DNA of 63,444 bases, the filler included, from Phoronis australis (Eukaryota > Animalia > Phoronida), in the NCBI GenBank assembly GCA_002633005.1. It is 7 parts of 7 records of this genome, joined end to end, with 100 filler letters (N's around TTAATTAATTAA, not from the genome) between each part and the next. Parts side by side here need not be neighbours in the genome. Positions count along the whole stretch, not along the records: positions 45,634 to 51,760 come from NMRA01000416.1; 6 more parts are not named here. One strand, written 5' to 3'. The notes under the pieces were generated by a model. The model worked only from the letters and a program-made list of their open reading frames with translations. It had not been told where the DNA came from and made no database searches. The translations under genes and the position numbers were made by a program. Positions 3,965 through 57,600 of this stretch are shown here, one piece after another. Position 1 is the first letter of the stretch. Each line of letters starts with the position of its first letter.

Positions 3965-4685
3965 CGTACTGCTCCCGCACTAACAAGTCTCTCAACTCAG
4001 CAAAGTCTTTGCCACAGTCGGACATGTCGATCCACCTGTCTAGGTTACGTTGTATGTGACGTGCCACAAACTGGTATGCTGTCTCGCCCTTCTCGGCCCT
4101 CGCTTCCCGGAACTGTCTGCAAAAACCCTCTTCAGTCAGCTCATAGCGCTTTAGCAAGGCTCTTTTGAGTGTAGCATAGTCCAGTGCATCAGCCATAGGA
4201 AGGCTAATATAAACCTGCAGGCCCTTACCTGTTAACAGGGGACTGAGACTAATTGCCCATTCACTCTGTGTCCAACCCTGACTCTCTGCGTATCTTTCAA
4301 ACCTTTCCAGGAAGTTGTCCATATCGTCCTGTTTTTCATCAAACTTGAGTAGCTTCGGTTTTATGCCACCAGTTGATCAAACATGGCTACCCTCCGCTGC
4401 AACCTGTTCAGCTTTCAGTGCTGCTATCACCCTCTCGTGTTCCATTCTTTCTCTCTCCATCTGCTGTTCGGCCTCTCGCGCCCTTTCCTCAGCCTCTCGA
4501 GCTTGCCTTCTCTCCTCCGCCTCAGCCTCTTGCGCCTGCCTTCTCTCCTCCGCCTCAGCCTCAGCCTCTGCCTGAGCACGCACTTCAGCTTGTTGTTTTT
4601 CAACAAACTGTCTGAGATTGTCTCCCTGCAGACCCATTTTTTGTCCGAGGGCCATCAACTCTCTTAGTTGAGATCTTGTCTCCAT
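3965..4685 (-). mobile_element. Gypsy LTR retrotransposon gag remnant (one in-frame stop, 3'-truncated)
   Basis: ORFs 4377-4685 and 3945-4322 are in the same frame, separated by a single TGA. A coiled-coil E/R-rich N-terminus is followed by KPKLLKFDEKQDDMDNFLERFERYAESQGW...LLTGKGLQVY...DYATLKRALLKRYELTEEGFCRQFR, typical of Gypsy Gag. Similarity ends at a TTAA (3961-3964). Confidence 0.88.
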
Positions 4686-4740
4686 AGTGAGTCGCTAATT
4701 CCAACAGTCCACGTTATCACACCTTGTTACCGTCAGTAAG

Positions 4741-5043
4741 CTCCTGGCGTGCTCGCCAATTGTCACGTTTTTCCCTGTGTTTGGGTGGGCGCAGGTTGTT
4801 ACAGACCGGTGCTAATAGCTTTCGGTGCGAAGATTGACTGAAGACTGGTTCGAGTTAATCCTTTATTAATCCCGACCGTACGTTTACAAGCCTACTCAAA
4901 CAAAACGTCCGACGTAATGTCTGTTTATGCTCCAGCCAGTGCTGCGAAGCCTTGACTTGTGTTGAACTTCTGAGATACTTCCAGCAACTGTTACACTCGT
5001 TAATTCAATAACCTGCTGTCTCTATAGCTGGCTCTCTATTGAC
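4741..5043 (-). mobile_element. Primer-binding site (tRNA-Arg-like) and 3' part of the 5' LTR of the Gypsy element
   Basis: Minus strand reads ...CGTGACA|AT|TGGCGAGCACGCCAGGAG. The plus-strand CTCCTGGCGTGCTCGCCA (4741-4758) resembles a tRNA-Arg 3' end including CCA. The LTR ends in CA at 4761, carries AATAAA (4862-4867, minus) and runs into the gap. Confidence 0.7.
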
Positions 5044-5143
5044 NNNNNNNNNNNNNNNNNNNNNNNNNNNNNNNNNNNNNNNNNNNNTTAATTAATTAAN
5101 NNNNNNNNNNNNNNNNNNNNNNNNNNNNNNNNNNNNNNNNNNN
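5044..5143. other. Artificial contig spacer (44N-TTAATTAATTAA-44N)
   Basis: Identical 100-bp spacers also at 9726-9825, 18188-18287, 45534-45633, 51761-51860 and 60147-60246. TTAATTAATTAA gives stops in all six frames. Confidence 0.97.
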
Positions 5144-5274
5144 TGTGGGTACTTGTGGTGTGGTCTGGTAGTGGGTCTGTGGGTACTTGTGGTATGTTCT
5201 GGTAGTGGGTCTGTGGGTACTTGTGGTATGTTCTGGTAGTGGGTCTGTGGGTACTTGTGGTGTGGTCTGGTAGT
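5144..5274 (+). repeat. 34-bp minisatellite, about 4 copies visible
   Basis: TGTGGGTACTTGTGGT(G/A)TG(G/T)TCTGGTAGTGGGTC units start at 5144, 5178, 5212 and 5246; the array abuts the gap. Confidence 0.95.
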
Positions 5275-5571
5275 TGAAATGTGGCTGCTTTTTCAATGTG
5301 TGAAGTTCACATCTGATAACATTCATTTGACAATGAGCATATTCATGCGAGTACTGCGAAAACAACGCAAGGTTAAGTAAGACTTTTTCAACGTTTTATT
5401 TTTATCTAAAACTGGGTTTCTTTTCTCTGGCATGGCTATTATTCTTTTCATTAATAAGTCTCCCCAGGAACCAGTTATACCCAGATGTACAGTAGACAGT
5501 TTAGACACATTGTACCAACCCTTTGCTTATGTATGCCTAAAGGCGTGAATGTAATGATTTCAAATTTACAG

Positions 5572-5755
5572 TGCTCAAAGGGAGGGATTGTTGTCAGAGG
5601 CGACATCAGATGAAGATATCGCTGACCCTTTCTACGCTTATTGCCGCTTGCATGCGGACAAACTAATTGTTCGTGTCAAAAAGAGAAACTGGCTGGCAAT
5701 ACAGTCTTTTAATAAGAACAGACAAGAGAACCCATCTGTATCAGGAAAGGAAGAG
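5572..5755 (+). CDS. PHF14: PHD finger protein 14, internal exon (end of ePHD)
   Basis: AG/GT bounded. Encodes AQREGLLSEATSDEDIADPFYAYCRLHADK...KRNWLAIQS, matching vertebrate PHF14 AQKEGLLSEA..EEDIADPFFAYCKQHAD. Not in the ORF track. Confidence 0.93.
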
Positions 5756-7136
5756 GTATAGAAATTTTGAAATTATAATTTAATATTATCCATTTAGTTG
5801 ATATTAGGAATTAGATTTCATGTGTAAAAATAACATGTTTGAAATTTGTTATTGTACGTACTAAACTCTTTTTTGACTTAGAAGATTAGCTTTTAGGAAG
5901 TTGTGTACCCTTTGTCTTGATCTGTATTATACCGTTAAATTTTGAAAGCTTCAATGCCGTCTTCAAAACCTTGTTTATTTCTGCGTCTGTCATAAAACCA
6001 TGCATAAAACTGACTATGTCATTCTAGGCAAAATAGTGCCTTAATTGGCATGAGACCATGTCACGTGACCATGTCTTTTTAGTTGTAAATAGCAAAAAAG
6101 AAAGGTGCATTCATAGCTTAACAATAGTTACCTATAACATGACCAAATTTTTTGATGAAAATCTCAGATGAGATTTCAAAAATATTTTTACAGTTTTCTG
6201 AAATGTCGTTTCATTTCTGTTTTATGCAACTTTTGATTTTTTTTGCACAAAAATCATGAAGTCCTATTGTGTGATTTTTCGTCATGCAAACGTGGAACAT
6301 TTTACAAATAATTCCTTAGCAGCGTTTTAGAGAATAGTGCATCATAGTTTACATTGTTTTCTCTGAGGTCACGTTCTTTGACCTTTTTAAATTTGTTTCC
6401 CTCATCATGACTGCATTCCTTGTTGTAAATAAAATAATCGTCATTTTTCATTTCTGGCAGTGCGCGGCATGCCTTACCTGTTCTGTTAATGTTGCATGTT
6501 TTTGGCCTTTGTTAACTCAAACCAGGGAATTTTTCAATTAAGTCAAATGCTTTACACATTTTATCTGGCCTGTACTTTGATAAAATGTATTATTGTATCT
6601 TCATCAAATTTTATTTTGTATAAATGTTCAAGATGAGATCTCAATAAATCTTACAGTTTTCTGGAAGACCATTTGTTCTTTGTCATGCAGCTTTTGATTT
6701 TTTTCAGGAATATCATAAAATTACTATTATTTTCCACAACCCCTCGAAAAAGTAGAACATTTTAAAAACAATTGCCATGAACAGCATTTTGGAGAGTAGT
6801 GATTAAAGCATATAGTCTGAAAGTTTCATTCTATCAACACGGTGTTCCAAAGTTAGTGAAATTTGGACATTTTTCTGGAGTCCGACATAAGCTAAACATT
6901 CTGTTATTACGGTGGTTGTCTCTGTGCTCTCCCATCTTGACAGAAGGACATGTAGTATGCCAAGCTTGATGTTTCCTGTTAGGTGTTGCTTTTTGCTATA
7001 CTTTGCTTTTACTTGTGTCACGGGGTCCTCGAGGGCGTCTCGGAATTCAAGATTTGGCTACCGTTGTAATCGGCAGTCAATCTTTGCATTAAATAACCTG
7101 TCAACGTGTTTGCCTTTAAAGGTAATCTCTTTCCAG

Positions 7137-19249: not shown

Positions 19250-22200
19250 ACGATGGCCTTCCCCATTGTCAAGTCTGATGGTGTGTTCGTAAGAATTTGT
19301 GGTGACTACAAGACAACGGTTGTCAGTCTTGCGTCTAAGCAAGACCATATTTACCCGATTCCTAGAATCCGGGACCTATTTTCTGCTGTCTCTGGCGATG
19401 TAAAATTTACTAAGCTCGACTTCTCAGTTCTCATGAGCTTATCAGTAGATTTGTTTGGACCAGGAATCCAAATCTCTCGCAACTATTAACACTCATATAG
19501 GTCTGTTTCGTTCGACCAGATTGCCGTTTGGTATCAATTCGGTAGCAAGTATTTTCCAGCGTGCCATATGGAGAATCTTGTGTCAGGCATTCCGTTGACA
19601 GTAGTGTACCAGGAAGACATTCTCATTAGCGCCAAGAATGATCGATTGTAATCATCTGCGTAATCTCGAGTGTGTTTTGTGTAGGTCGCGTGAAGCGGGT
19701 ACATGTATGAGACTCCTGCGTGACAAGTGTTTTCGTCGAAAGAGGTCACTTACCTTGGACACGTACTGCATCAACTCTGGGCATTCATACATTGCCGTAG
19801 AAAACCTGTGCGATTGTTGAGGCACCAACACCCAATAACGTTTCCGAGTTACAATCATTCCTCGGTATGTTGAATTATTACTCTCAGTTTGTGCCTGATC
19901 ATGCTACTCGATCTGCTGGCACCATTGTATCGTCTTCTTCGGAAGGTTGCGCCGTGACAGTGGGGAGACGCTGAGAATCAGTCGTTTGTGGACGCGAAGC
20001 AAGCTCTTGTGTCTCCGCCCATATGCTCGCTCATTTCCAAGTAGACGAGGATCTAGTTCTTGTGTGTGATGCTTCACCTCATGGAGCAGGGCTCGACGTT
20101 ATTAAAATCGCCAGGTCGCATTTTGCAACCTAGCCAAAATCCCAGGTCGCATTTTCAAAATCCAGCTCGCATTCGTAAATGCCAGGTCGCAAAATTTTCC
20201 CGCCATTTTTACGCGCCAAAATAGATTTTTTAGATCATCGAGAAATTGCTCTTACTTGCAGCGTTAAATACTCACAAATTTCGGATCTCAAAATTGNGAC
20301 TTGATACGAGCTGACAAAAATCTCAGCTCGCATTTCCAAATTTCAGGTCGCAAATGCGACCTGCAGCTCGTTATGTCGAGCCCTGTGGAGTAGGTGCTAT
20401 GCTGTCACACAAGTTCCCTGATGGCCAGGAGAAGTATTTTGCGTTCGCCTCGCGAACTTTGTCGTCCTCTGAGCGAAACTATTCGCAGATGGACAAGGAG
20501 GCGCTTGCCGTGTTATTTGGTGTTAAGTACTTTAACCAGTACCTGTACATGTATGCTCGTAACTTTGTGATATATACAAATCACAAACCTTTATTGGGTC
20601 TGCTCCTGGAGAGTAAACCCATGCCGGAGATTACTACTCCCCGTATGCAGCGTTGGGCGATCACTTGGTCTGCATACATGTACAGCAATCGCTTGTTGTA
20701 ATTCCTGGGAAATCGAATTCCTCTGACACTGGTTGTTTGAGTCGTTTACCGCTGACCGCTGCCTGACCCGCACCCCGGCCAACCCGCGATCGAGAACGAC
20801 CGAAAGGCGATCGAGAACGAGACCTTGCACCAAAATGGCAGACGACAGTCACGTACCCGGTGAGTTTAAGTGTCATTTTCTGCTTAAATAGAGGCCACTT
20901 TGGTACGAATGTTACACACAGAAAAGCATCAGAGTGAAACCTTTGTTGTGGATCAGAAATAATACGTTTGCTTATTTTTTTTTTAAAATAAAGAGCTCAG
21001 AAAGCAATGGCTTTTGGTAAAATGCCTTGCGCCTCGTAAAATCGACAATTTCTACTTCTAGTGTTATTAGCAATTCCAGGGTTCTCAAGAAGAGACGTGT
21101 GACGTTTGTAGTTTAATCGTCCCTGGTGACACCTTTGTTAGTTATGATTTGTGAAACAATTAGAGATATTTACCAATACAAGCAGGTCCTTGTGTGAGAC
21201 GGCGATCGGGAACGATGTCGTTAATTCTCTATGGCGATGGTGAACGCAAGAAAAGCGATCGCGAACGTACATTTTTTCTCTGAATTGGCCTGAATAGTCT
21301 TTCAAGTTACGGTATTATGTCAATAATTTTAGAATAATACGGAGCCTGAATTAGTTGATGGGTTAATCATTAAATTACATTTCATCGTTTTTTCATTATT
21401 TCCAAGTGAGATTTAGTTTAACAAACATAACTGAATGCGTTTGATTTTTTCAATTGAACTGTAGCCACACGGCGAGTCCTTCAGGGTGTTAACGTCCACG
21501 CCTTCAAAAAAGAGTAGTACAACTGCTGTATGTCACAACAAGGTGTGTGTGTGCTGTGGAGTCTCGTTCAGGAACTAAGAAATCGACTTAGTATGACCAC
21601 ATGGCAATAAAATACAGTGACACTACAACAAAGCAAGACCTTTACCAGCCATGTGATTGACGCGTTGCACGGGTCAAGATTTTTTTACCCCATAGTAAAA
21701 CACAGCATGAAGCATCGTGCTCAGGAACCAAGTCGTTTCAGTGTCCTATCTGTGTTCAATGTTTCACGGAAAGAGTAAGCCTGGCGTGCGTTCAGTAGAA
21801 GCTAGGACCTACGCTAGGACCTAGCTAAAACCTAGTCAAAGTCACGTGCTCTCATTTAAAATGCAAGGCAATATCTCACGTAATCTCGCGAAGTCTTGGT
21901 TTTTAGCGATGTCCCAGCGTTACTGAACGGGAGGTGGATGTGACACTGCGTCAAAGCAGGAGGACACTCCTTTTTGTGGTGAATGTGGCATGTCATGCAA
22001 ACAGAATGCCTCCTTCTACAGGCATAGCAAGCAGAAACGTCATGAATGAAAACATTAAGTCTAGTGCTGAAGGTTATTTTAATAACTTAAAAGTCACTAT
22101 AGTTTATTCAGATTTACAAAGTCTGTGGTTGGTACTTGTCTGATGTGATAGTATTTTGACGTTTTGTTTTGAAGCTTTTTTCCTCATGTTTCTTTCTATA

Positions 22201-23211: not shown

Positions 23212-24118
23212 GTGGACGAAGCGGTAAAATTATTTGATGCTTTCCCTCTCTAAGATGGCTCCAGTTAGCATACAAGGAGTTTCGTAGGCCATAAAATCAA
23301 ATTACTTGAGGTTTAAAGTGAAATTTCTGTATAAACACTTCATAATTAAGGAAACAATCATCGGAATTAAGTAAGTCGTGTACAAGAGTTATCTTTCTTA
23401 GAAACCACTTTATAGAAAACAGGCTTGTTAGAAGTCATTTGAGATATCTTTGTAAAATGGAAATCTCCGAACAATAAATATTTATTTAAAACTCTCGATA
23501 ACAGACAATTTGCGAAAACTGCCCATACACTTGTAGTACTCTGAAAAAGTAGTAAACGAAACCGAGTTAATTAAATGGCTTTCATAGAAGAAGTGACGCC
23601 AATTATTCTGGCTTCACCAACGTTAAACTTTTAAGCCATAGCCTAGCAACAATTTTCCCGTTTCATCGCTCTATCCAAAACAGTAGAACATTTTGTTCAG
23701 CTGCTTCAGGAAGTCCTGTGAAGGGTAAGGGGGGTATGTAAAAAGATATGTACGTCGTGACATAATTATGAATGTCACAACTGTTATTCTTCATGTCTAT
23801 AGCCTTCTATATTTCACCAAGCTTACTATTAAAGTTAATGTGGGGAATTTTATTTAAATATATAGCACATTGCTTTGTCTCTCTGTTTAGCACATGGTCC
23901 CATTTTTCTATTGAATCACCAAAATTAAAGAAATTTAGAACTTTGGTTTTCGCCCTTATAGCCTGTCAATAGCTCAGTACAGTCATTCGTAATCTCGTGA
24001 TTTCGTCATAGCATATTGTTGACGACAGACCGACGATGGTTTTGACTCAAGTTCTTGTCAGAAGATCTCGACATCTAAGGTATACCCTCCTGCCCTCTTG
24101 TTACAACCGCTGAATAAA

Positions 24119-25027
24119 ATGATGTCGGTTGTCGTGATTTGGGTGTTGGTGACAGTGGCTTGCCAGGCAATGGCGCAAGAACTCAAAATATCATTGGAAT
24201 CTAATTCTACAGTGCTCGAATTGAAACAGTTCTTGAATCTTACTTGCAGTGTGATCGTTGACATTGGCAGGACAGGCAAGATGTGGAGAAGAAATGGAAT
24301 AAGTGAATACTTTATACAGAAGAAGCAAGATGAAACAAACGGGTGGCTCAACCTTAACAAAAGACATATGAGCGTTAAAAGTAAACATTTCGAGGATGAC
24401 GAGAACATAAATGTGAAGGCATTTCATTACGGCACTGTTGAAACGTTCATGAGCAGAACAGTGGTTTTAATACGCATTCGCGAAAGCGACGAAGGTTTTT
24501 ATCGCTGCTTGTACAAGCCAACAAGTGACTTGGCACAGGCCTCTCCAACTGTCAAAATTGTTGTCAACAGAAAACCATACAATTTGAATTTAGTCGCAAC
24601 TGATAACCAAATGAATACAGTAAATTCAGATACCGAGAGTGGCGAGAGTTTGGCAACGGGCGTGAACCTGAAATGCACAAGCACGGGCGGGGTACCGTAT
24701 AGCACTCTTGTCATCAAAGCCGGTGACAAGAAATATTGCTCTACTACACTTGTAAAAGTAGCCTGGGAAGGTGAAAAGCCGGGTTATATGGTGTTGCAAA
24801 GACGAGTCTCAACAACAACCACTGAACCTGATCCTTCAGAGCTGAAAGGCAAAATAGTCGTCTGCGAGGCGCGTTATAGAGGTGAGATTGCCATAAGCAC
24901 GACGCGTAAACTTGAATTTGCATCACTGAAAGAAGGGTGCTCGTCACAACTGACAGCTAACATTGCAACTTTGGCTACGATATGTATTATTTCTATGCTT
25001 CCAACAAAGCGTAAAGTTTTTGATTAG
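24119..25027 (+). CDS. Intronless two-Ig-domain secreted or cell-surface protein (302 aa; signal peptide, Ig-V, Ig-C2-like, hydrophobic GPI-like tail)
   Basis: Signal MMSVVVIWVLVTVACQAMA; LNLTC...W...DEGFYRC (V-set signature); second domain VNLKCTSTGGVP...IVVCEARY; hydrophobic C-terminus IATLATICIISML; AATAAA at 25060-25065. Confidence 0.88.
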   Translation: MMSVVVIWVLVTVACQAMAQELKISLESNSTVLELKQFLNLTCSVIVDIGRTGKMWRRNGISEYFIQKKQDETNGWLNLNKRHMSVKSKHFEDDENINVKAFHYGTVETFMSRTVVLIRIRESDEGFYRCLYKPTSDLAQASPTVKIVVNRKPYNLNLVATDNQMNTVNSDTESGESLATGVNLKCTSTGGVPYSTLVIKAGDKKYCSTTLVKVAWEGEKPGYMVLQRRVSTTTTEPDPSELKGKIVVCEARYRGEIAISTTRKLEFASLKEGCSSQLTANIATLATICIISMLPTKRKVFD

Positions 25028-42965: not shown

Positions 42966-45793
42966 GGTGGCTTGTGTATGACTGAGTGTATTAAATGTTG
43001 GCCGATACGAGTCGCTACATCAGTTGTGATTAACACATTTAACGAACACGTTCCGATATTACAAATCTATTTAGTTGACATTAAAACTTAGAATTTGCTG
43101 CAGTGAATTGATGGAAACGTTTAGGAAATCTCAATCTCTCTTAAACTACGGCAACGTGTTTTGAAAATAGATTTAAAAATCCGCTCAATAAGTCAGTGAT
43201 AAGAAATTGTCATATCTAGTGACCATGGTAATACGAGATCACCTAACCTCGCTCCGGCCAGCCACCAACGCCTGCAGTTGGTCTCGTACATTCCGAAAAT
43301 ACAGCCAAGCATCTGACTGTTTATTCTTCCTTATTTGGAAAGTCACGTGAAGTGACTTGAGTGATAGGCGTTGCATCAATGTTGTGATTGGCGAAGTGGC
43401 ATCAGCGCAGTATACGCTGATGGTAATATTGTAAATGTATTGGAGTTATCCAGCGTTCATCAACTTGGAATTAAAATTAAAATATACACATCACGACGAG
43501 GGACCAAACCATGCCCTTGTTGCAATGGCTCGACGTCATTCCTATGACAAATCATGAACCAGAATAGTTCAGAGCCATCTAGTCTCAGCTGGGTACTACC
43601 GGAGTTGCTAGTCTGTAGATCGCCCTAGAGGTAATATGTGCAGTAACATACGTGTATCAACTGTCATATCCGCATAAGTCTGGGGATAATCAATACTACA
43701 ACAGAATGCCGCTACTTGATCCCACCGATTACGTACATGTATGTGTTACGTCAGCGTTTGGCTAAAAAGAACTTATGAAAACGTAAATTCTGAACAATGT
43801 GAATCTATGAAAACTGACGATGCTCTTGTCTCGGTCATTTTATGTACTAGTACGGGTAATCTAGCTAAAATGTGTTAGGTAACGTGTGGCAATTTTATTT
43901 GCTCTTTGGTCTCAACTAGGGGGGCGAGTTGCAAATGGACGTTCAAGACCCTATTGACCGGAAACCTATATCGCAGCCAAATGAGGCCTGTGACCCCAAC
44001 ATGGACTTGCATGTGCCTGTTTTACAAAATGTTACGAATAGTCTCAATCTACGACAGTTTCTAACGTGGATATCTGTCCTGTGGCGGATCTATGGATGTT
44101 TTAAGATTGAACCTCCCAACAATAAATCACGTCTGAGCACTCATTTCACAATAAGAAATACTGGCGGATTGATACTCAGCTCGAGAGGAAACCGACTCCA
44201 ATTGCTAAAAGACGAAAGGTTGGGTTCATAACGTGAAATGATCGTGATAGAATCTGAGGGGTTACAAGAGACTATAAACTTGACATGCTTTTATCAGCGA
44301 TTTCAATAGTTCATTACCCACTCGGCTGAGGGGGCAATAAACATGATGATTACGCCTGGTCTTGCAATGGAACTACTTTTAACTGAATGGTGAGATGCCT
44401 TTCGGCGGCATTAAGTTTATACAATACAGCACTTTTTCGACATGTACGTTTAGTTAACGAAATATATAGAGAATTAGAAGATTCAGGAAAGTCGAGTCGC
44501 ATTATAATTACGTACATGTACCTGTCGTTTACAACGTTCGATCGCTCCCATATACTCTTTCTACAATTCGTTTTTAACGAACTCGAATACAGAACTTGTA
44601 ACACATGCGTGGTTGTGGATGGTATAATCACCAAATAACTACATGTATGTCGTCGTCGAACCGCCCTTCAGCATTGATCGTAATATGGTGGTCTTAAAAA
44701 GTTCACGATAATTCTCGTGAAAAAAGATGGAATTTTGACGCAGAAACTTTCAGTAAATTTTCAACAATTTTAGGGTCATTTTTGCGTCCAACTTCCTTCC
44801 TAATTTTCGCCATGACTTCCGACAAAAATCGTTAACTCTTGAAATTAGCGTCATTTTTCGTCCGATCTTCATTGGGATTTTCGCTTTACGACAAAATGCA
44901 TGTGGTTGAACACGGACGCCCGTCGCTTTCAATTTGAAACGGTAAAAAACGACGAAACTTTACACATCACATGTGCTCACGACCCACGAGAACGGATTAA
45001 TACTGTAGCACTGCGCAAATTAGACCGTCGTGGATTAATAAATTCCTGAAATTTGTTACTTTCTCAGGAATTTTAACTCATGTTTAAAGATATTCCACGC
45101 TAATTTCTGTGTATTTACTTTGAAATTATTAGTGTAAATTAAATTATTAACGGATATAAAATTCAAAACAAAGGAAACCGCTTTACCGCGTAGTAATACT
45201 ACAAATTACTTCAAACTCAGCTGATCTGACCGAAGCGACCTCAACTAAAACTTCACCGATATTTACGGAGAGAGCACATGCGGAGGTCAACATTTTATGA
45301 AGATTTCAGATCTTCTATTAGTTTAAACCCATCCGAAGAGCGAAAAAGTGAAAACAGACATGTTGTTTCGTCAGGCAACTCTTATCTTAACGCGATCAGC
45401 TAATATGTATTAGCGTGAAATCGCATGTTACCGGCCAAATAAAGGTATGTGGTTTACTGTTGTGTATTGGCAATGCTACTTGTGGTTTTCCTTAGAATAT
45501 AGTCACGTGGTATTTATGCCCACAAGCCACGTGNNNNNNNNNNNNNNNNNNNNNNNNNNNNNNNNNNNNNNNNNNNNTTAATTAATTAANNNNNNNNNNN
45601 NNNNNNNNNNNNNNNNNNNNNNNNNNNNNNNNNTATTTTACATAATGTATATTAAAAGTGAATCAAACATTGAGAATCATTAACATATTCTGCATCAAGT
45701 AGTAGTTAACATTTGATAACAGTTGAGCAACAGTTAGTTTCACATAATAAAAATGAATAAGTGTCTTGTTTTTGAAGTAATTAATATCTAAAG

Positions 45794-45980
45794 TCATTCA
45801 TTTGATTGTATGCTGGAGTACCAACCTAGACAAAACCATTCCACTTCAGAGGGAGGTGGATTGTCCTCAATAACATTTTCAAAATTGAAATGAAACCAGT
45901 CGTATCATCTGTCACATTGAATGGATGGTTGAATTCCCTCATCTGGGTCCTTGCATTCTAAGTCGCATACGGAACACAAG
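45794..45980 (-). pseudogene. Decayed C-terminal PHD finger, probably transposon-derived
   Basis: LCSVCDLECKDPDEGIQPSIQCDR*YDWFHFNF...EWFCLGW shows C4HC3 spacing with one Cys changed to a stop and two Cys substituted. Confidence 0.65.
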
Positions 45981-47397
45981 AATTGTTTCGAACTTGTTTT
46001 TGGCCCAGGCTTTGACGGTTTAGAGGAAAGCTTATGCTTTGCAATTTTTGCCAAACCAGGTTTCTTGGAATTCTACAAGTGATATAGTTTTTTTAATTGG
46101 AAAGTAAGGCATAGGAGACAAACAAGTATCTTTATCCTCAAATGTAGAAGATGTGATAGAATGCTTTTTGAGATGGTTGCAGAATTCTTGGAGATTTTTG
46201 AAAATACAATTCACTCCTTCTTTATAACAATACATAAATCTTCGCTTCCTATGATTGGACTGAATGCATTTCCTCAGGCTACCCTCATTAGTAAAACAGA
46301 ACGGTGTAAGTCAGAAAGCACGCTTGGCACTGAATCATTACAGAAAGTTTTTTTTTTACAATTTTGACTCTCATTTTGTGGATGGGTGTTTGAGATGGGA
46401 AGGCGAGTAATCTGGAATATGAGGCACAGTACTCATATACAATTTGTTTTAGTCCATTTCCTGGTTTCTGAATGATAACACAACATACAGGTGTTTAAAA
46501 AGTATGGTTTCCCTATAACAATAAATGACAGACAAGTGCAAAAGTGCACAAATAATATTTACAAATATTGTGACCAGCAAGCAGCACGTGATACATTATA
46601 TCCATGTTCGAAAATGCTAGTTTGTAACACAGAAGGACTGAAAGTAGAAAGCGTGAGTGAATTATTCTCAAAAGACAGTGGATGGAAATTCACCATCTGT
46701 CCACATGTAATATTTGCCATTCTTTTCTAAAAGTTTCACTCACACTCGTCTACAAGAACCGATGTAAAACACAGTTCACGAATCAAACAGTTTGGTATCG
46801 ACATGGGTTAACAGCACAGTTGATATGCGGACATGATTGGTGCATCTCCAACGTAAAGGGAGTAGATCACTTTCACGTGTTATTACCAAGCAGGCCCTTA
46901 GTAAGATACAGTCAACTATCACTTGTGTTAATGTTAACTAGTTATATCTTAAACCCCAGTTTAAATAAATTTTACAAATGATAGTCCACTCTTATCAAAA
47001 ATACAGTACAACCTGTGTGTGGACTGTAAAATACTGTGGCCAATTAAGTCATGTACAGTTATCACTGTTCCTCACAAGATCAAACGGCAGGCAATAAGTG
47101 GCCTAAATCACAATTTAGTTTTTTCAACAAACCCCGGACTTGGTAAGTGTAGGTATAGGTAAAGCACATCAGGGTGTGGGTAGATACAACAAAAGAGACA
47201 TTAGCACAAGTGCTACTTACAGATAGAATTACATGTTTAGAGAATTATTTACAGAGAGGTACACATAGAAGATACACATGCAAAAAACATACATTACTAT
47301 GTATACAAGCCTTAGTCAAAAACCTGTATGGTTGGGTTGTAAATTTACTTCCAGTGAATTCTACGAGTCTCTGTTAGCTACTCGCTGATGGGAAATT

Positions 47398-47478
47398 GCC
47401 CATTGGCTGAATGGTAAGCACACTTGCCAGTTTTATCAGGGTATTTATCAGGGTTGCGGTTCGATACCCTGCGGTTGG
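47398..47478 (+). other. tRNA-derived (SINE-head-like) fragment
   Basis: Pol III A-box-like TGGCTGAATGG (47404-47414) and B-box-like GGTTCGATACC (47458-47468); no proper cloverleaf. Confidence 0.4.
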
Positions 47479-47646
47479 ATAACTACAATTGCCAACGCGA
47501 TGCAAAAGACATGACACAACATCGAAACGGTTCTGGCACATTGTAATATCTTATTGATGCTGGCAATTTGTTCCAGAGGAACACTTCAATTGAGACGTAA
47601 TAATTCTATGGAATCTCCCTCATTCTCACTTGAGGATTTATTGCAG

Positions 47647-47889
47647 GTCAAGCGTCTGGAAGTCTACAAACAAATTTATGAGTTGCTGGAACACTTAAAA
47701 TAATTATGAAAATTAGGCCCAAAGTAATACTTAACCAACGGTTACTAAGTCTAAGCCAGGTTACAAAACAATTGTCAAGTGTCTGAAAGTCTACAACCAA
47801 ATTTATGAGTTACTGGAACACTTAAATAATATGAAAATTAGACCTAATACAAAACGAACGGTTACTAACTAAGCCAGGTTACAAAACAA
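47647..47889 (+). repeat. ~125-bp tandem duplication
   Basis: gtcaag.gtctg.aagtctacaa.caaatttatgagtt.ctggaacacttaaa...aagccaggttacaaaacaa, two copies. Confidence 0.9.
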
Positions 47890-48889
47890 CTGTGTGCTCT
47901 AGACCTTTAAACACGGAGCTGCAAATTAATGATAAATGACAAAATGAAATTATGCATTACTATGTAATTCAGCCTTTACAACTGTTATCTTGAACACGTT
48001 AAGAATTAGAAGGAATCACTAATTTTGTAATAGAAGACGCAAGGCAGTTAAATCTCGCTTGTATATTCGCTTTGAATCGCAGTCTGTTTCTGCACCAGCA
48101 AATGCCAGAATTAACCTGGTTCCCGGGCCTCACAAGCTGACGTCACGGATTGCTTGTGAAGGCCCAGGTACAGGGCACTAGAACGATGGTTTTCATTGGC
48201 TGTCAGCCGGCATGCTGACATCCGGTATTATGTTATCAGGTCACTAGGTGTCACGAGAGTAAACGTTATTTTTCGACTGGGTCGCGTTTGCGGTCGGGGG
48301 TAACTCTCTGGTGAGGTAGCTGTTTATATGTTGTGATATTACCAACAAACTGTAGTAAAATCATGTAAATATCGATTCCTTACTAGGAAAATATACCTGA
48401 ATTAACAATGGCTTCACTCTTTTGGCATTCTTTCAGTTTCTTTGTTTGAACGCTGTTTATGAATTGAAAATGGTCCTGAAATCCTGGATCCTTCCCTGCT
48501 GTAAGATCTTACTGCAGGGGATGATACAGCATTTTGAGTTAGGGGGTAGGGGTAAGGGCAGAGTAGTTTGCCCGTCAAACATTTGCACCCCTAAGCTGCC
48601 AAATGGAATCTGGGAGAAATTTAGGCAGGCCCGTCCATGGCCCCCTTGCCGCCTCCCCTCCCCACTATGCGTCTCTGTACAGTGTTACAGTAGATACTGC
48701 TGGCACCCAATTTCCACCACTTGGCAGCCTACACAGTATTCATCCCCTAGAACGCCACAATTTTCGACTCTCCAGGTAGCCACGATTCTCAAGCTACACC
48801 CCTCACCTCGTTGACATTCTAATTTTTTCTTCCCCATATCCCTTTTAAGGTGGGACCCCACACAGCTTGAGGGTCTTAAGTCATTCAGA

Positions 48890-49300
48890 TCACCTTGGGT
48901 ATATTTGGGGCCTCAAATTTCTCACTGGAGGTGAATTTAACCTGCGTGATCATCAAGAGGAGAATGATTGGCCATAAAGTTCGCGCATGCACTGAAAACA
49001 TTAAATTTCCAAGGGCATCCAGAACACCTCGGGTGTTTTTGTAACCTCAAATTTCACCTAATAGGTGAATGCTCTCTGCATGTGTGCGGACTTCAGTTTG
49101 CCTATAATTGTCAAGATTGAAAATCACGTGGCTTGCCATATTTTGGATAACTTTCATCTCCGAGAGGAGATTTGAGGCTACGAAAATACCCGAAGTGTTT
49201 CTACGAAAAATTTGTAAATGTAAATAGGGAAATAGCCGAGGTGCACCAGATGTTCCGAGGGTAAATTTGTAGCTACGAAAATACCCAAGAGGTGTTCCAA
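48890..49300. repeat. Foldback arrangement of ~33-bp units (two forward, two inverted)
   Basis: cacct(t/c)gggt.t.ttt...cctcaaattt at ~48891 and ~49025; atttg..gctacgaaaataccc at ~49170 and ~49263. Confidence 0.7.
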
Positions 49301-50962
49301 ATGGGCCATAATCTTTAGTTTTGTACATAATCGAGTACTACATGTAGAAGAATCTCCACCCATTTAGACAGTGGCTAAAAAAACATTATGTTTGTGGTCC
49401 GAGGTTTAGACTTAAATAAAATTGTAGCCTAATGTTTCAAATGCACAATCTTTTTATAAGAGCTAATGCTAACAAATGAATCCTTTCGTAGTAATTCTTG
49501 GACAGCTGTCTTTTTCACCCATTAAGCTTGAAGAAGTCGGCCAAGAGATTCCTGTTGTCAAAAATGAGTCTGGTGTCCAAGGTTTTACAAATACAGGTAT
49601 CGTATTAAAACCCCTTTTGCAGTAGGGAAAAGGTACCATTTCCCGTGTTTTTAACTTCCAGAGTGAAACTCGTTGTATTCATGGGAAAAAATTGCTTTGG
49701 TAGGGCTTTTTCAAGCACCATTTTGAAGAGAAATTGTTTTAATGAGAAAAATCACCCAGTTGAGTGTTGTGTCTTGTATAAACCTATGGGAGTACCCCCT
49801 TGGAATGGTTTTAGGAGGGTGCTATGAAAGCTCAAGGATGGTGGAATGAACCCTATCCCTATACATAACTATGTGCGTTGAACATCTTGGAAAGTACAAG
49901 CACAATTGTTGATTTCAGAATGCGCTTATCAGATGGTGTCTTGTAACTTCCAGATTTCCTTCGAATTAAATCCCTTTAAATTGCTATAAATGGGTCTTAT
50001 GTGAAAAAGAATAAATTTTGATCTGAACAACTTACCACTATATACTGGAATTGAAATGACAATAAAAGGAAATTTTTCCAGGTGATTTATCATTTCACAA
50101 ATAGGCTTGAATGTGTGATAAAAATATTTTTGTGTTGTAAAATTAAACTGAAATAAATGTTTTTGCATGAATCAAGCCAAAAATGATGATAAAAAGAAGC
50201 TGGAAATCAAATAAAAGGAAATAAAAACAAACAAGGAAAATTCCAGGCCCTGTATATATCCCTGTCTCAACTTGTTCCTTAGTGGACTTGGAAGAATTCA
50301 AACTTTGTTATTGCTCAAAGCCATGGTTATTGCACCAGGTCTTAAGCAATAACAAACTATCCGTTCAACCGAAGCCAATATACCACATGTAATGTCAGTA
50401 AGGAACAGTACAAGATTAAGAGTCTAATCACAAGCACACACATGAAGATTAACATCAGACACTAGTATCCAAATCCAATGCCAATCTTCATGGGAGTGCT
50501 TGTGATTTTTGCCAGTAATTTGGTCAAAAAACAACATTGTTTGTACCAGACCAATCTTATGTTCTTACACGACGGTTCTAAAAAGAGTTTGGGTAAAAAG
50601 CAGCTTGAAAAATGGTACAATTTGTGGATAAGGAATGTCAAAAGGGTTCATTTTTCAACTGTTTAGTACTTGGAGGCTCTGCATGAAAAGGGGACAGGGA
50701 CAGGGAAGCTAGGCAAGAACAAAATGGAATGAATTTCTATCAGGGGAAGGGTTTGCAATGAGGATGGGATAGCCCTGTTGTGCGCCCACGGCTATGTTAA
50801 TGCCCAGACTTAGTACTTCAGTCTATTGCTAAACTAAACCATATTTGTAATCAATACATCAGAAAAATAAAGTTCCCGATGCTTAGATAAATTTCTTGGC
50901 ATTTTGTGTGTTTTGTAGCTTATGAGTATACTATTTCTAGGAACACATTAATGATGTCAACG

Positions 50963-51045
50963 TGAGGGTGTTTGCCAGTGCGAATGCTCTGAAGCATTTC
51001 ACACTGCCCAACTCTTGCCACGAGGAGGCCCCCTCAGTAAGAGTC
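50963..51045 (-). ncRNA. HDV-like (nested double-pseudoknot) self-cleaving ribozyme
   Basis: Minus strand: P1 GACUCUU/AAGAGUU (G1-U wobble); J1/2 AC; P2 UGAGGG/CCCUCA plus one G-C pair beyond a bulged A; P3 GCC/GGC; L3 UCCUCGU; P1.1 CC/GG; P4 CAGUGUGAAAUGCU-UCAG-AGCAUUCGCACUG; J4/2 GCAAA containing the catalytic C. Predicted cleavage between 51046 and 51045. Confidence 0.88.
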
Positions 51046-53767
51046 AAATTTGTAATTTTTGAAAAACTGTTCGAAAAGACCGAAATGTTGACTAAAATCA
51101 CTGCTGTATTATGTAGATCATAACCACAAGAATGAAACACTAGCGTGTTGCTCAAAACACTGAGCAAAACATAATGGTAATAGTAACATACCAGGCACCC
51201 CCACTTTGAGAACCATTGTTTTCTACTGTATAACAGGAACCTGTTTTTCACTGAATAGCAGGCGTTAAAACTTGTTCTCAAAATTTGGATTGCCAGTGAG
51301 TGACTATTGCCTGGATAACAATCCAACCCAAGCAACGCACAAGAAACCGTCAATTTGAGTTTAGTGACCCATGTCGTGAACACATCCACTAAAACAAGAA
51401 ACTGTAGGAACACCGCATTTATCCACCTTCACTCTTATCAGGCTTCTATTGTGAGTCAGCATGCGTGAATAATTGGCTGATAAGCCACCTCTGGAACTAC
51501 TTTTGGCTGAATGGATGACCAGGCCATAAAATGATAATATTAGCCAAGACCAGTTACTAATGCAACAAAGAATAGTGTCGTAGTATCATCTAGCCTTGGT
51601 GGAAAGCTGTATACTGTATTGGCTCTAATAAACGCTTAGAAAAAATCATTTCACGGGGAGGGGATTCTTATTGTAGCCTACGGCAGTTGAAAGCCGGTTT
51701 CCCAAACGGGTAAAATCGGAAGCTAGGATTCATAAAATTTACGCTTTGTGACGAATTTTANNNNNNNNNNNNNNNNNNNNNNNNNNNNNNNNNNNNNNNN
51801 NNNNTTAATTAATTAANNNNNNNNNNNNNNNNNNNNNNNNNNNNNNNNNNNNNNNNNNNNAACTGAAGTCTGTCGCGCCCGCTTAACGTCAAGTTAGCTT
51901 CCGCGACTCAAACGCAACAATGTACTAGAGGTGTTTAATTTACAGCCGTTTTATTTTTGTAAGCTTTGGAAACAAGGTCGACGCCTCCGACAAGCTCACT
52001 TGGTTGTGTTATTTATTCTTGCGTTTGAATTATTCATGTAAACAAGCTTTGTGTGCTGGCCGTTCAAGACTTACAGTACACGGCTTTGTATTACGTGCCC
52101 TGAATGAAAAAATACAATACGTTGATCAAGTGCATTTCAAAACCTGTGTTGCTACTAAAAACATCTTAATTTCTTTACCATACTAAACTGAGAGCCAAAC
52201 ACGCTACTCCATTAAAGTACATGCAATCAGTCGGGAGAGCATCAGGTCGACTGGGTTCGGGTCCCCCGTCGTCGTGGTCGCCGGGACACCACGTCGACTG
52301 ACTTGATCGGGTACCATGTCGACTGATTGCGTACGACTAGGACTTGGTCGGGCTCGACTGTGTCTTGGTGAGGCATCATATCAAGTTTATGCACACCGCG
52401 TCGGCCTAGTTGATCAAAACGTCACTGCAGGTAATTTATTTTGTCCCATCTGCGCCGTGACCTGATGCCAAAGCTTTATACACCAAACCAGTTGGAAGTG
52501 AAACGATTCAATATTTCACTGCAGAACAAAATTATCTCGTTTGACCTCAGCAACAAGTACAACAAAAATGACCCCGGGATGTAGGTTTCGGACTAGTCCC
52601 ATCACTCTGTTAAATTTGTAAGCTTTGTCACCCAGCTTACATGCTTAGAGATCATACCATGCTTCCGTTCACTGGGCCTTGACCTTGTGAAGAAAGGATT
52701 CTGATGCACGTTCCATGCAATGCTACTTTTGAAAACCATCGTGTTGGATCCATGCTTTCTATCAAAAATATGTAACTTAGTCCGCTAACCGTTATAAAAC
52801 GGTCTCATCCTATTCGTTATTTAGGAAAGAAATGAACTCTGGGCTCATGTTATTTCAGACGAGTCTCAATAAAGTTCAGGCCAACGCGTGTACGTTCACC
52901 CCAGTCGAAGCTCGAGATACGTTGGGTTGGTCAAGGCAAACTTATTGTACTGTATGTAGTCAATTGCACAACTGACGTATGACACAAAAGATAATTAATG
53001 CCGTTTTGGATGTGTTAAACGGGCCTATATGAACCGTTAGAAAGCCGTTTTGGGCACGTCACTGCAAATGTTTTTGTCGCTTTAACCCTAAGGGTGTCTG
53101 GTTATCACTCAAAAGCACGCACACGGTTCGTTACCAACTGAAATGTAATCGGCATTTCCACTGCTCATACACTGTACTGCTTTTCCATTGTCGGTACATG
53201 TAGCGTTATTTCCACTTGAACGTTTTAGAACACGACGCGTTTGTCAATTATCAATATCTTGAAGCACTGTTGAACTAGAAGAGTACTGAACCTATAAACG
53301 TAACAATTCATGCGCGCCAGATTAAGACATGGACCAGCGGGGTTCATTTATTGTGTCAATTCAACTGAAAGATTCTTCCCTGGCAATTTATTTATTTCAA
53401 TTCGAAGTTTGCGACTTCGACTTGACTTAACCCTCGTTGCGCAAGAGAAAATTGGCCCGCAAGCAACGTGAACTTGACCTTCCCATTCTACCAAATGAAG
53501 TAAGCTTCGATTTAATTAGTAGACCATCGAAAATTATAAAAGTAGCCTCGACATGTTCCTTAAACGGATTAAAAATGATTTTAGATCTTGGAAAGAACCA
53601 ACATTCCGACATTGACTGTGGCCATTCTCGGCGCACAACTTACCAATACAGACTGCTTAATACCATGTCCGAGCAAAAACGTTTTTAAAGCTTAAAAACA
53701 CTTCGAGTCTTAAAAATGATTCATTTTGCCAAAATTTCCGATTGCTTTGGTCATTTGCGAAATACGT

Positions 53768-54645
53768 TTATCTCTCCCCTGCAGAAACTTTCTGTGTGTT
53801 AAGAGCCTTACTCTGGTTTGAGTCTGTTTCACACGAAATGACTTTAATGACAACACCGTTCGATTCCGCGGGAGGTGATGGCGGAGAGGTGACGTTCTTT
53901 GCAGGCGGGGGACTCGTCAGTTGATTCCTTGGAGAGATGTCACTCCCCCTAGGACTTGTGTCACTTTTATTAGACGAGGCCGACAGTTTTCTCTGTCGAA
54001 ACTGTTTCCTTGAAATCATCGGCGACGCGACATGTGATGATATCAGTGGCGATGTTGGCGGCCACTTAGCGCCATCCAAACTATCCTGTCGTTTCATGGT
54101 ATTATTGCCCAAGTCTATTGAAATCATGGGACTTTTTCTTCTCATGAGCATGGGTGAGTCTATTGATGATCGAGTAGAAAGAGCGCTATCTGGTCGATTT
54201 CGAGGACTACGACCAGCGTTACCGGCAGATGGAATTCTGGTACGAGGGCTCAGACTTTGAATGGTCTCGCCGCGCTCGAAGGGATTGCGAGAACTGAAGG
54301 ACTGTGCGCGGACACGTGAGTGCGAATTTTGAAGTTGACTAAACGCCCGCAATGTGTCCAGTTGGTCCTGTTGTTGGTCAATTGATTTTCTTGGACGACG
54401 AACTGATTTAATATACTCCGGCTCTCCTAGTGTAGTAAGTTGCCGCAGGGAGGCGGTCAGATTGGTACTTGAACCGGTTCTTGAGCGAAGTTGCCCATCA
54501 AGGCCCACGATAGGTGGTAAGAGAAACTTAAACGAGTTTCGTGTTCTCAAGTCCGGTGGTAGAAGCTTCCCGGTGGCCGTGTGTACATCGAGGTCTTCAA
54601 ACTCCCTGGACATCCTGCGACCTCTTCTTGCAGCATATTTTTTAC
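53768..54645 (-). CDS. Exon 3 of the unannotated gene
   Basis: 878-nt open frame (SREFEDLDVHTATGKLLPP...FLLPPIVG..., many SP and RxxS motifs) ending in TAA. Confidence 0.8.
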
Positions 54646-57600
54646 CTGCAAGAAGAGCGTTCAATAAGCATGTGCATGGGCGGCGCACCATAGGGGGCGC
54701 TGGGGGTCTATAGCCTCCACTTATTTCAATGCTGCGCCGTCCATGTTAAAAATATTCGCTTGTCTAGTGAGCTTAAAGAGGCATGGAACGTGAAAACTTG
54801 TAAAAAATACCTTTTAAACAAATCGTGGCGAATCTTGGCGATGTTAACGTGATAGTTATTCACCTTGAATATTGCAAAACTTTCTAAAAAAGTCGTCATA
54901 TTCACTCTTTGAAACAGAGACGTAAAAACAATTCTTTAGTTCCTATACAGTTTTCAAATTCTCCGCCACCAACGCATGCGCACAAACAATTCGGACGGGC
55001 TGCTGCTTGAAATCATCATTGTTTTGTTTACCTCAAAGGTCAAGTGTCACATTTTACATTTAAGGAAAATGCGCTACGTTGATGTCTTGACATACCAAAT
55101 AAGGAGACGTGCTTTGCCGTGTGGTAGAAAAATCGACGAAGTGATCAGCAGTTGACAGATTGTTTGTTCAAATATGAAACTAGAGGAAAAATGCTTAGAC
55201 ATCAAAGAAATTCAAAATCTTTATGAGCAACCCGTAAAAATACCTCGTGAGCAGTTTGTTTTCAGTGTCTGTGGTACACAACCACTTTGAATAATGCAAC
55301 TTAGTCTGTTTTTCACGTTCTATGCCACTTTAATTTACTGCACGCATCGCAAACAACAACTCCACGGAAAGAACGCTGCTTCCAATATTTCTCGCTACCT
55401 CCTTGTTACTGTTGTAGGATTAATTGATTTCAAGGTTTGCGGTCATAATTTGCATATGATTAACGCAGCCAGTCGAGACTGAAACTGTCAAGTTGCTATG
55501 TAGATCGCATTTATTATGGCGACCATATAGCCTTAGCAACAATGAACTCGGGTGGGTAATTTGCATACAACGTAAAATAAGGAACCATGACTCCACCAGA
55601 TTTAAAAAACCTCAAAGTGCATTCCAGACAACGTAATGACGACTTTAGCGTTGCAGACATGAAAGTCAAGGATTAGAAGCGGCACCTTCATGTGCTTGAC
55701 ATTTGAAATCCTTAAATATTAAAAACATCTAGCTTCAAACCATTACTTATTTTTTAGATACTTTTCAAAGATACTTGAACTTAGGTAAAATGGAAATGTA
55801 TACGGGAACAGACAGTTTGGCTTTGGTGCAGTCGTTAAAAATAAGATTCAGCCTCAAGCTTTCAGAAAAAAAATCGAAACTGCATTAAAGTCAACAAAAT
55901 CACAAGGAAAACTGTTCATTACAAAAACGTTATGTAACTACATTATATTTTGTAATTTAATAACCGAGGTGTCTAAACTATATTTAGAAGGTAAATTATA
56001 TTTTCACACGTCTCGTGTCAATGCAAAATAACCCAATTGGGACCTTTCCTTTTTCGAAAATCGATTTGTGCTGTTAACAATACCAGTCTTTTTTGTGATG
56101 ACGTTTAAGAGGTAAGAGAATAAATTTGATTTGGTTTGAATATTACACACGGTGCTACTCTGTGCAAGTTAACTTACCCATTTTCTCAAAGTCTGTTTCT
56201 GCGGCTTTAGCGCCTTTAAAGTTGATCGGAAAAGGATTAACAAACTTGTCTTCATCTTCCGACTCCGTTAAGCTTCCACTATCACTACTTGGTTCTGAAA
56301 ACAACGATCAGAGTTGAGTGGCGGAGACGCAAAAATACCGCGATACAAGTCGATCTCGCAAAGTCTTGGCAGTGCGTGATCTTACGTTTTCGCGAGGCGC
56401 TCGCGTCTATGGAACCTACGTCGAGGTCATTACTACCTGGTCTCATTGGCTTCCGGTATCGTTAGATCCCGTATTGAGACTACGTTGGCTCAGTTTCTTT
56501 TGATTGGTCAATGATGCAAAATGATACTCGCACAATTATCTACACTGATGATGTTTAAAGCACACGGAACGCATCCTTTTGCAGATGAGTAGGTGTAAAG
56601 GGAACCACTGTCCGGTTTACGGATATTTGAGCGGCCGAGCATCTGGGGGAAACATTGAATGACGGGTCAGTGTGTTTACATGTAGGTGGAACACTAAGCC
56701 CGCGGGCTAGCTCGCTTTCTTGCTGCACCGCCGCTATAACAAGTACACACGACAAACGCCAGAATATTTCGTGCGTGATGAAGTTTAATTACTAAGTCAA
56801 TGAAGTTTCGTACTTTTGAACACACTACCGTACAATGATAAAAATCACGAAACACGATCCTTCTGTACGTATTTGGTTTCATAACTGCAGTTTCCCGTTG
56901 CGTGGTGAGTCTGTCTTTATAGCCTAACAGTTGCTCAATAAACAGTTTGTCAGAGGACAAAGTGACTTGTTTGAGAATTTTATATTTAGAACTGTGAGTG
57001 GTTCAGCGTGCACGGGTTGTGATGAAAATGGTGCACGGAAGTTGTAGGCTATATATGAGCGACTCACTATACATCAATGCAGACAATCACGTTGTTTTAC
57101 GAATACCGGTAATTAATCACTCCAAGTTTTATGGCTTTATTATGGACCAGATATCGAGTTGCCAGTGGTAAAATACTGTTAATGAATCAAGTAGGTAACG
57201 CCAACTCAAGTGGGAACGAGTATTCGATTGCAGTATCTCAAGATGCCACATTTATGGCACAGCCTATACACCTTATTCACGCAGTCACCATTTTAAAAGT
57301 GAGCCTCTTTTTAGGTTTTAAAAACAATGTAAGAGCAAAGCGCGAATTTTCCTTGTGCCTTGTTATATTTATGTCTCAAATGCATTGTTTTTAAATCTAA
57401 AAAGAGGCTCACTTACTAAAATGACCACTGCGTGGATAGGGTGCATAACGAGAATGCGACTTACTTGAGTTGAAAATTTAAAGCTTATAACACTAACAAT
57501 TGTACCGGAAGATGTAGCAGGAATCAAACGAGTGCAGTTACTGAAATCATGGACGGTTGTTGCATTTTGAAAGGCCAAGTCATTTTTTTTTCTAATTTCT

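What the first reader, a model, noticed from the sequence alone, without database searches (positions are those of the whole stretch)
50963..51045. Apparently intact HDV-like self-cleaving ribozyme with no retroelement ORF attached
Seen in sequence (minus strand): aattt|GACTCTT-AC-TGAGGG-G-GCC-TCCTCGT-GGC-AAGAGTT-GG-G-CAGTGTGAAATGCT-TCAG-AGCATTCGCACTG-GCAAA-C-A-CCCTCA. All five helices of the HDV fold (P1 with G1-U wobble, P1.1, P2, P3, P4) pair in the right order. L3 is nearly the HDV UCCUCGC sequence and J4/2 has the catalytic C. Established: HDV-like ribozymes occur at the 5' ends of non-LTR retrotransposons (R2, RTE, L1Tc) and in the mammalian CPEB3 intron. Here no RT or endonuclease ORF follows it, and nearby repeats are heavily decayed while this fold is essentially intact. 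Inference: it is either the 5' processing module of an undescribed non-autonomous retroelement or a retained, possibly domesticated, ribozyme in an unannotated transcript.
Basis: partly seen in the sequence, partly recalled or inferred. Interest (0 to 1): 0.88.

Follow-up and report, generated by a model that had tools for sequence, protein, structure and literature searches.

The report
Ribozyme inside a multicopy animal repeat
A complete fold of a known class of self-cutting RNA sits inside a repeated stretch of animal DNA with roughly 40 copies, rather than at the repeat's start as such RNAs usually do, and it likely cuts RNA running through a transposon-like element whose class is not yet known.

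Summary
The HDV-like fold is real at 51045-50963 (minus strand): five helices, G-U first pair, catalytic C50974. A descriptor finds it once in the window and twice in 412 Mb of shuffles. Rfam scores it below cut-off. Cleavage is untested.

The window joins seven contigs; this one is 6.1 kb and holds no RT. The ribozyme is neither solitary nor a usual LINE head. In public DNA of organism A, one unbranched 170-nt contig about 40 times deeper than unique DNA spans the cut site, and both flanks are equally repeated. It therefore lies at least 320 nt inside a repeat of at least 2.2 kb. Repeat depth falls toward a decayed PHD-finger ORF about 5 kb downstream, and a hAT-type end motif lies 173 nt upstream.

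Most likely it is an internal RNA-cutting module of a DNA-transposon-like element (0.45). The main rival is a captured retroposon head carried as a passenger (0.30). RNA-seq shows no 5' ends at the cut site and mostly antisense reads. The scan holds no look-alike sequence, but unchecked notes describe similar settings in other genomes.

The parts
50963..51045 (-). HDV-like ribozyme fold (P1, P1.1, P2, P3, P4); predicted cut between 51046 and G51045; predicted catalytic C50974
51046..51368 (.). Upstream flank, part of the same medium-copy repeat
   Evidence: X3 contig 50998-51168, depth 1952, 2 substitutions and 1 gap; binned depth 2382-5585 up to 51368; parts of it also in runs X5, X6 and X8
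51172..51311 (.). Imperfect palindrome of about 140 nt; its centre holds a hAT-type end motif (51218-51201, minus, pointing at the ribozyme) and a degenerate partner at +51269 pointing away
   Evidence: z -2.94, 1 of 100 shuffles as good; same 18-mer is an element end in unrelated contigs: 7 of 50 distinct left ends have a right end and an 8-bp TSD
49186..50962 (.). Downstream body of the medium-copy repeat, no protein domain found; interrupted by a high-copy fragment at about 50112-50182
   Evidence: X3 depth about 1400-6600 outside the high-copy fragment
45652..48069 (-). Lower-copy continuation (about 9 copies by one contig of depth 420), transcribed on the minus strand in organism A; holds a high-copy insert near 47326-47511
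45797..46594 (-). Decayed ORF with a C2H2-like stretch (read by eye) and a C-terminal PHD-like finger; broken by a stop, a frameshift and a 52-nt insert
   Evidence: PHD E 0.00096, 19.6 bits, below cut-off 24; (X7 contig covers 45652-46594 and skips 46229-46280)
51369..51760 (.). Separate very-high-copy element with a sharp end at 51369/51370 and varied flanks in other copies
   Evidence: depth 131,000-280,000; differing loose ends at 51369/51370 in X5, X6, X8
51761..51860 (.). Artificial 100-nt contig spacer (another at 45534-45633); DNA beyond them is not linked to the ribozyme

Best explanation
This is an HDV-like ribozyme fold that lies at least 320 bases inside a repeat with tens of copies, and it likely works as a built-in RNA-cutting module of a mobile element that is probably DNA-transposon-like rather than a LINE. 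Shown: the fold, the shared flanks on both sides, and no RT domain in the 5.4 kb downstream. Inferred from the class: when the minus strand is transcribed through the element's end region, the double pseudoknot would fold and C50974 with Mg2+ would cut 5' of G51045. That would leave a 5'-OH downstream RNA cut free from upstream or host read-through RNA. [quoted passage not shown] Odds by step: fold real 0.97; catalytically active about 0.8; inside a multicopy repeat 0.9; integral to a non-LINE element 0.45.
For: An unbranched 170-nt contig crosses the cut site at depth 1952, against mostly 40-55 for single contigs, which gives 35-49 copies. Identical ribozyme heads with other upstream flanks would be expected to break that contig at 51046. 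Depth shows no step at the cut, and it falls away downstream (3000-5000, then about 1500, then 500-1000), the reverse of LINE 5' truncation on this strand. No significant TSD (231 of 3000 controls as good) and no poly(A) or tandem tail near the ribozyme. A hAT-type end motif lies 173 nt upstream. A decayed PHD ORF lies on the same strand and its family is transcribed. In X3, joints of equal depth 31.9 (probably one diverged copy) link upstream flank, ribozyme 3' end and downstream body in order, a hint that the linkage predates the recent burst.
Against: No transposase was found, the element's ends are not in the contig, and protein searches found no relatives (the one hit is an unrelated repeat protein). 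The hAT motif lacks the usual TA-centred target site, its partner faces outward, and the repeat continues past it, so it is not the end of the amplified unit. Linkage of the PHD part to the ribozyme is seen only in this one contig. Logan contigs drop rare variants and summed depth is not a copy number, per the tool. Intactness is not significant (P 0.16 for no listed fixed difference in 83 nt; P 0.03-0.15 for at most 3 in 171 nt). RNA-seq shows no pile-up of ends at 51045, and reads over 50488-51231 are mostly from the opposite strand (summed bin depths 28.4 vs 7.2 in X9, 26.9 vs 9.7 in X10). P2 5' can pair with L3 in a competing hairpin.
Confidence: 0.45

Rival explanations
1. Passenger: the 5' head of a ribozyme-headed retroposon (RTE, Vingi or Ingi type, or a short non-autonomous derivative) inserted into a larger repeat and was then amplified with it. 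The ribozyme has no role for the carrier.
For: This is the known home of the class (PMC6765202 passages; PMC4035085 abstract). The contig is a patchwork of nested inserts. X3 depth is higher at 50967-51033 (8962) and 50833-50966 (about 4400-4500) than beside it (2100-2600). A 9-nt match to the upstream flank lies 194 nt downstream. Unchecked scan notes e1-9270997 and e1-8584191 describe such mini-elements in other genomes.
Against: The 9-nt TSD is chance-level (231 of 3000), and organism A's copies differ at 50847 inside it. No tail. No branch at the cut site. The depth excess can come from overlapping short contigs.
Confidence: 0.3
2. The medium-copy 2.2-kb part is a long terminal repeat of an LTR-like, retrozyme-like, Penelope-like or DIRS-like element. 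The ribozyme cuts once per repeat to release a unit-length RNA, and solo repeats explain the extra copies.
For: Shared flanks on both sides and a copy ratio of about 4.5 to 1 over the downstream part fit solo repeats. LTR retrozymes are processed by ribozymes (PMC7761336 passages). One X6 contig joins 51201 back to 49761 (depth 7.8, 35-nt side).
Against: No second repeat or second ribozyme in the window. The retrozymes described use hammerheads and have units of about 150-700 bp. RNA depth around the ribozyme is 11 or less per strand, pooled over all copies. The X6 joint is one short contig at the edge of the laid stretch.
Confidence: 0.12
3. A site-specific non-LTR element (R2-like logic) inserted in a multicopy target, so that the upstream flank is shared.
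For: Some R2 ribozymes cut within the target sequence upstream of the element (PMC3774820 passages).
Against: No RNA gene in the window. No RT domain downstream. Copy number falls toward the 3' end.
Confidence: 0.05
4. A domesticated, CPEB3-like ribozyme in a host transcript at this locus.
For: The fold is intact in a copy that has private changes elsewhere (at least 35 listed fixed differences in 1608 nt).
Against: Tens of near-identical copies exist, intactness is not significant, and no host exon was found in the contig.
Confidence: 0.05

Closest known systems
[quoted passage not shown]
   Same: Same five-helix double pseudoknot and catalytic C; multicopy; ORF-less carriers are already known in trypanosomatids (PMC4035085 abstract; PMC8256844 passages).
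   Different: Those genomic copies have conserved downstream and differing upstream sequence (PMC6765202 passages on Webb 2009). Here both flanks are shared, no RT follows, and copy number falls downstream.
Phage HDV-like folds with P4 fetched here (L017, L020, L063, L080 and others; relatives of theta ribozymes, PMC10879173)
   Same: Same 7/2/7/3/7/3/7/GG core spacing in the 9 sequences of A2; J4/2 G-CAAA in L017, L063, L080; bulged A in P2 in L020.
   Different: Phage DNA; no similarity outside the core (blastn of the contig against all 281 loci gave only the 24-nt hAT-end match). They are predictions picked by my descriptor, so their covariation is partly circular.
Mammalian CPEB3 intronic ribozyme
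   Same: HDV fold with no RT ORF beside it (PMC2950038 passages).
   Different: CPEB3 is a conserved host-gene locus; this one is part of a repeat with tens of copies.
LTR and non-LTR retrozymes
   Same: Ribozyme within a non-coding repeat.
   Different: They use hammerheads in paired or tandem units with abundant circular RNA (PMC7761336 passages); here a single HDV-like motif and low RNA depth.

Membership tests
HDV-like ribozyme | Five helices in nested double-pseudoknot order | tested here: met
HDV-like ribozyme | G+1 opening a 7-bp P1, catalytic C in J4/2, L3 core with C-C/G-G P1.1 | tested here: met
   catalytic C per PMC10879173 passages; the P1.1 and G+1 rules are recalled
HDV-like ribozyme | Reaches an Rfam gathering score | tested here: not met
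   30.8 bits against 50 for RF00094, the model of the viral ribozyme. This lowers membership of that Rfam family, not of the fold class.
HDV-like ribozyme | Covariation within its own family | not testable with these tools
   No sequences of other copies could be fetched
HDV-like ribozyme | Mg2+-dependent cleavage lost with C-to-U | not testable with these tools
   needs an in vitro assay
Ribozyme-headed non-LTR retroelement | Cut site at the element's 5' end, with varied upstream flanks | tested here: not met
   shared upstream flank; caveat that contigs drop rare variants
Ribozyme-headed non-LTR retroelement | RT/endonuclease ORF, or TSD and 3' tail | tested here: not met
hAT or other cut-and-paste DNA transposon | Paired terminal inverted repeats with TSD | tested here: inconclusive
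   one hAT-type end, partner faces outward, atypical target site; contig ends before the element does
hAT or other cut-and-paste DNA transposon | Transposase | tested here: inconclusive
   none in the contig; the element is incomplete; only a weak PHD match
Retrozyme | Two or more ribozyme-bearing direct repeats, abundant RNA | tested here: not met
   within a 6.1-kb contig
Domesticated host ribozyme (CPEB3 type) | Single-copy, conserved at an orthologous locus | tested here: not met
   multicopy; orthology not testable

The most novel reading that the evidence does not exclude
Some animal DNA transposons carry their own HDV-like ribozyme a few hundred bases inside one end, as a selected module that cuts read-through RNA or starts the element's RNA. 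This would take the class beyond retroelements and viruses to elements that move as DNA. An unchecked scan note on a Merlin transposon in another genome would be a second lineage.
Probability: 0.25. Interest if true: 0.7.

Novelty: new variant of a known kind. Interest (0 to 1): 0.42.

Why it matters
The ribozyme alone is one more member of a class widespread in animal genomes. The setting is what counts. Genomic HDV-like ribozymes are explained as cutters that free a retroelement's 5' end from a host transcript, which predicts varied upstream flanks. A ribozyme fixed inside a repeat that has no RT needs another job or is a passenger, and the two can be told apart with one long-read assembly and a cleavage assay. 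Two literature searches found no paper on the DNA-transposon setting: one search gave 5 listings, all on R2 or retrotransposons by title, and one search gave 0. The library lacks most subscription papers, including Webb 2009 and Ruminski 2011, and I read no supplements, where such cases could be listed.

Tried and rejected
No whole genome is held. An exact 20-nt ribozyme core found 0 matches in metagenome contigs. A looser core gave 5 viral matches that look like chance GC-rich DNA and 46 prokaryote matches with only 3 long, loose descriptor hits. The upstream 18-mer gave 110 metagenome matches, none a relative of this repeat. The ribozyme model searched 80 of those 110 plus 6 phage loci and gave one weak metagenome hit (E 0.29). 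The descriptor covered all 281 loci and found no hit in the metagenome ones.

Protein searches on fragments of the decayed ORF found no relative. The Atlas did not answer. A search meant to place the animal group found nothing, so the group is unknown. The 163-codon frame that reads through the ribozyme has no Pfam match and is treated as chance. The 325-codon frame at 53768-54745 and the RT-RNaseH at 20315-20698 are on other contigs and cannot be linked.

No RNA holder was listed by the run search. Runs X5, X6 and X8 do not cover the ribozyme; such holes prove nothing. The TSD candidate and an inverted pair at 50502/51078 are chance-level. An Academ or RAG2-like identity for the PHD ORF was recalled, not tested; the AcademH paper was not held. 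No fold or complex prediction was run.

Full report
Observation. All five helices pair: P1 with a G-U first pair, P2 of six pairs plus one past a bulged A, P3, P1.1 and a long P4. L3 is UCCUCGU and C50974 sits in J4/2. A structure descriptor, written after I had seen the candidate, finds it once in the window and twice in 412 Mb of shuffles. Rfam gives no match at gathering score and 30.8 bits, E 0.025, for RF00094. Nested folding keeps P1 and P4 and shows a competing hairpin between P2 5' and L3.

Independent comparison. Many hold HDV-like folds with P4. I aligned 14 and kept the 9 with the same core spacing, dropping 5 with shifted spacing or no P4. A model from these scores the candidate at 39.8 bits, E 1.9e-7, with the next window hit at 10.6. 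Held-out phage folds score 21-40.5 bits, apart from two near-copies of a training sequence at 75.4. This is partly circular, because the core came from the candidate and the set was chosen for pairing.

Setting. The window is seven contigs joined by 100-nt spacers. The ribozyme's contig is 45634-51760, with 715 nt upstream of the cut. No RT or endonuclease domain appears in its 51 stop-to-stop frames of 45 codons or more (49, 2). The far end holds a decayed ORF on the same strand, with a weak PHD match and no relatives found.

Copy number. The run search listed organism A (share 0.31-0.33), B, C and a marine metagenome; whether A is the window's own species is not shown. In run X3, all 30 bins of 49761-51760 are covered. 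One 170-nt contig spans 50998-51168 at depth 1952 with 2 substitutions and 1 gap, while single contigs in the tables mostly lie at 40-55. That gives 35-49 copies, on my assumption that those contigs are single-copy; the tool warns that summed depth is no copy number. The contig crosses the cut site without a break, and similar depth runs on to 51368, where a separate element of far higher depth begins. Downstream, depth is about 3000-5000 to 49186, about 1500 near 48628-48999 and mostly 500-1000 to 45652, with high-copy inserts between. The ribozyme is therefore internal to a repeat. Both lays show only the best-supported rows (for example 41 of 220 differences).

RNA. Two raw runs of organism A (18-19% read) look stranded. 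Under the usual convention the PHD region is transcribed on the minus strand. Around the ribozyme most reads come from the plus strand (summed bin depths 28.4 vs 7.2 and 26.9 vs 9.7). Ribozyme-sense depth is 4.0 and 3.5 in the bin starting at the cut, and 0.75 and 2.7 upstream, too low to call a step. No pile-up of ends lies at 51045. Reads are pooled over all copies, and fragmented libraries are poor at showing such ends, so this neither shows nor excludes cleavage in vivo.

Class of the carrier. An 18-mer 173 nt upstream is an element end in unrelated metagenome contigs: 7 of 50 distinct left ends have a right end and an 8-bp TSD, and 31 of 50 have TA at target positions 4-5. The label hAT/Charlie is recalled. 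In the window the motif lacks that target site, sits in a palindrome with a partner facing away, and the repeat extends past it. It is a lead only. A 9-nt TSD candidate is chance-level (231 of 3000). The fold's intactness is not significant against the copy's divergence.

Mechanism. Most likely (0.45) the ribozyme is a fixed module of a DNA-transposon-like element. It would cut minus-strand RNA at 51046/51045 and separate upstream read-through from the element's downstream RNA. The chemistry is inferred from the class (PMC3774820 and PMC10879173, passages); the role is inference. Rivals are a captured retroposon head (0.30), an LTR- or retrozyme-like repeat (0.12), a site-specific LINE in a multicopy target (0.05) and domestication (0.05).

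Comparison with what is known. Genomic HDV-like ribozymes are reported from sea urchin, lancelet, lamprey, insects and nematodes, mostly with retrotransposons (PMC2950038 and PMC8256844, passages), typically with conserved downstream and differing upstream sequence (PMC6765202, passages). ORF-less carriers are known (PMC4035085, abstract; PMC7761336, passages). A missing RT is thus ordinary; the shared upstream flank is the departure. Searches for the DNA-transposon setting found nothing on point (listing only). Two primary papers were not held and no supplements were read. The scan has no look-alike sequence and no notes on this genome. Unchecked notes from other genomes describe both the integral and the passenger setting.

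Verdict. A real fold of a known class in an unusual, unresolved setting. New variant of a known kind; interest 0.42.

Noticed in passing
L007:56-136 and 285-357; L080:70-145 and 285-359; L060:157-224 and 284-353; L045:283 and 516: Many IMG/VR phage contigs carry two different HDV-like folds with P4 in tandem, about 130-230 nt apart; what lies between them was not examined.
   Followed up: partly
window 24023-25027 (+): Uninterrupted 334-codon frame that reads like a secreted, Ig-domain, C-terminally anchored protein; weak Ig match, no relative found.
   Followed up: partly
window 20315-20698 (+): RT-type RNase H fragment (E 5.6e-23), on another contig.
   Followed up: no
window 53768-54745 (-): 325-codon Ser/Pro/Arg-rich frame, probably a host exon, no Pfam match; on another contig.
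   Followed up: no
window 48880-49300: Palindromic repeat with direct and inverted copies of a 30-55-nt motif, a related motif at 17821; MITE-like.
   Followed up: no
window 51369-51760: Element with depth about 50 times that of the ribozyme repeat in organism A, also in runs X5, X6 and X8, with a sharp end at 51369/51370.
   Followed up: partly
window 5044, 9726, 18188, 45534, 51761, 60147: Six artificial 100-nt spacers join seven unrelated contigs; features on either side must not be linked.
   Followed up: yes
window 49485: Six molecules begin here in run X9 only; unexplained, possibly duplicates.
   Followed up: no
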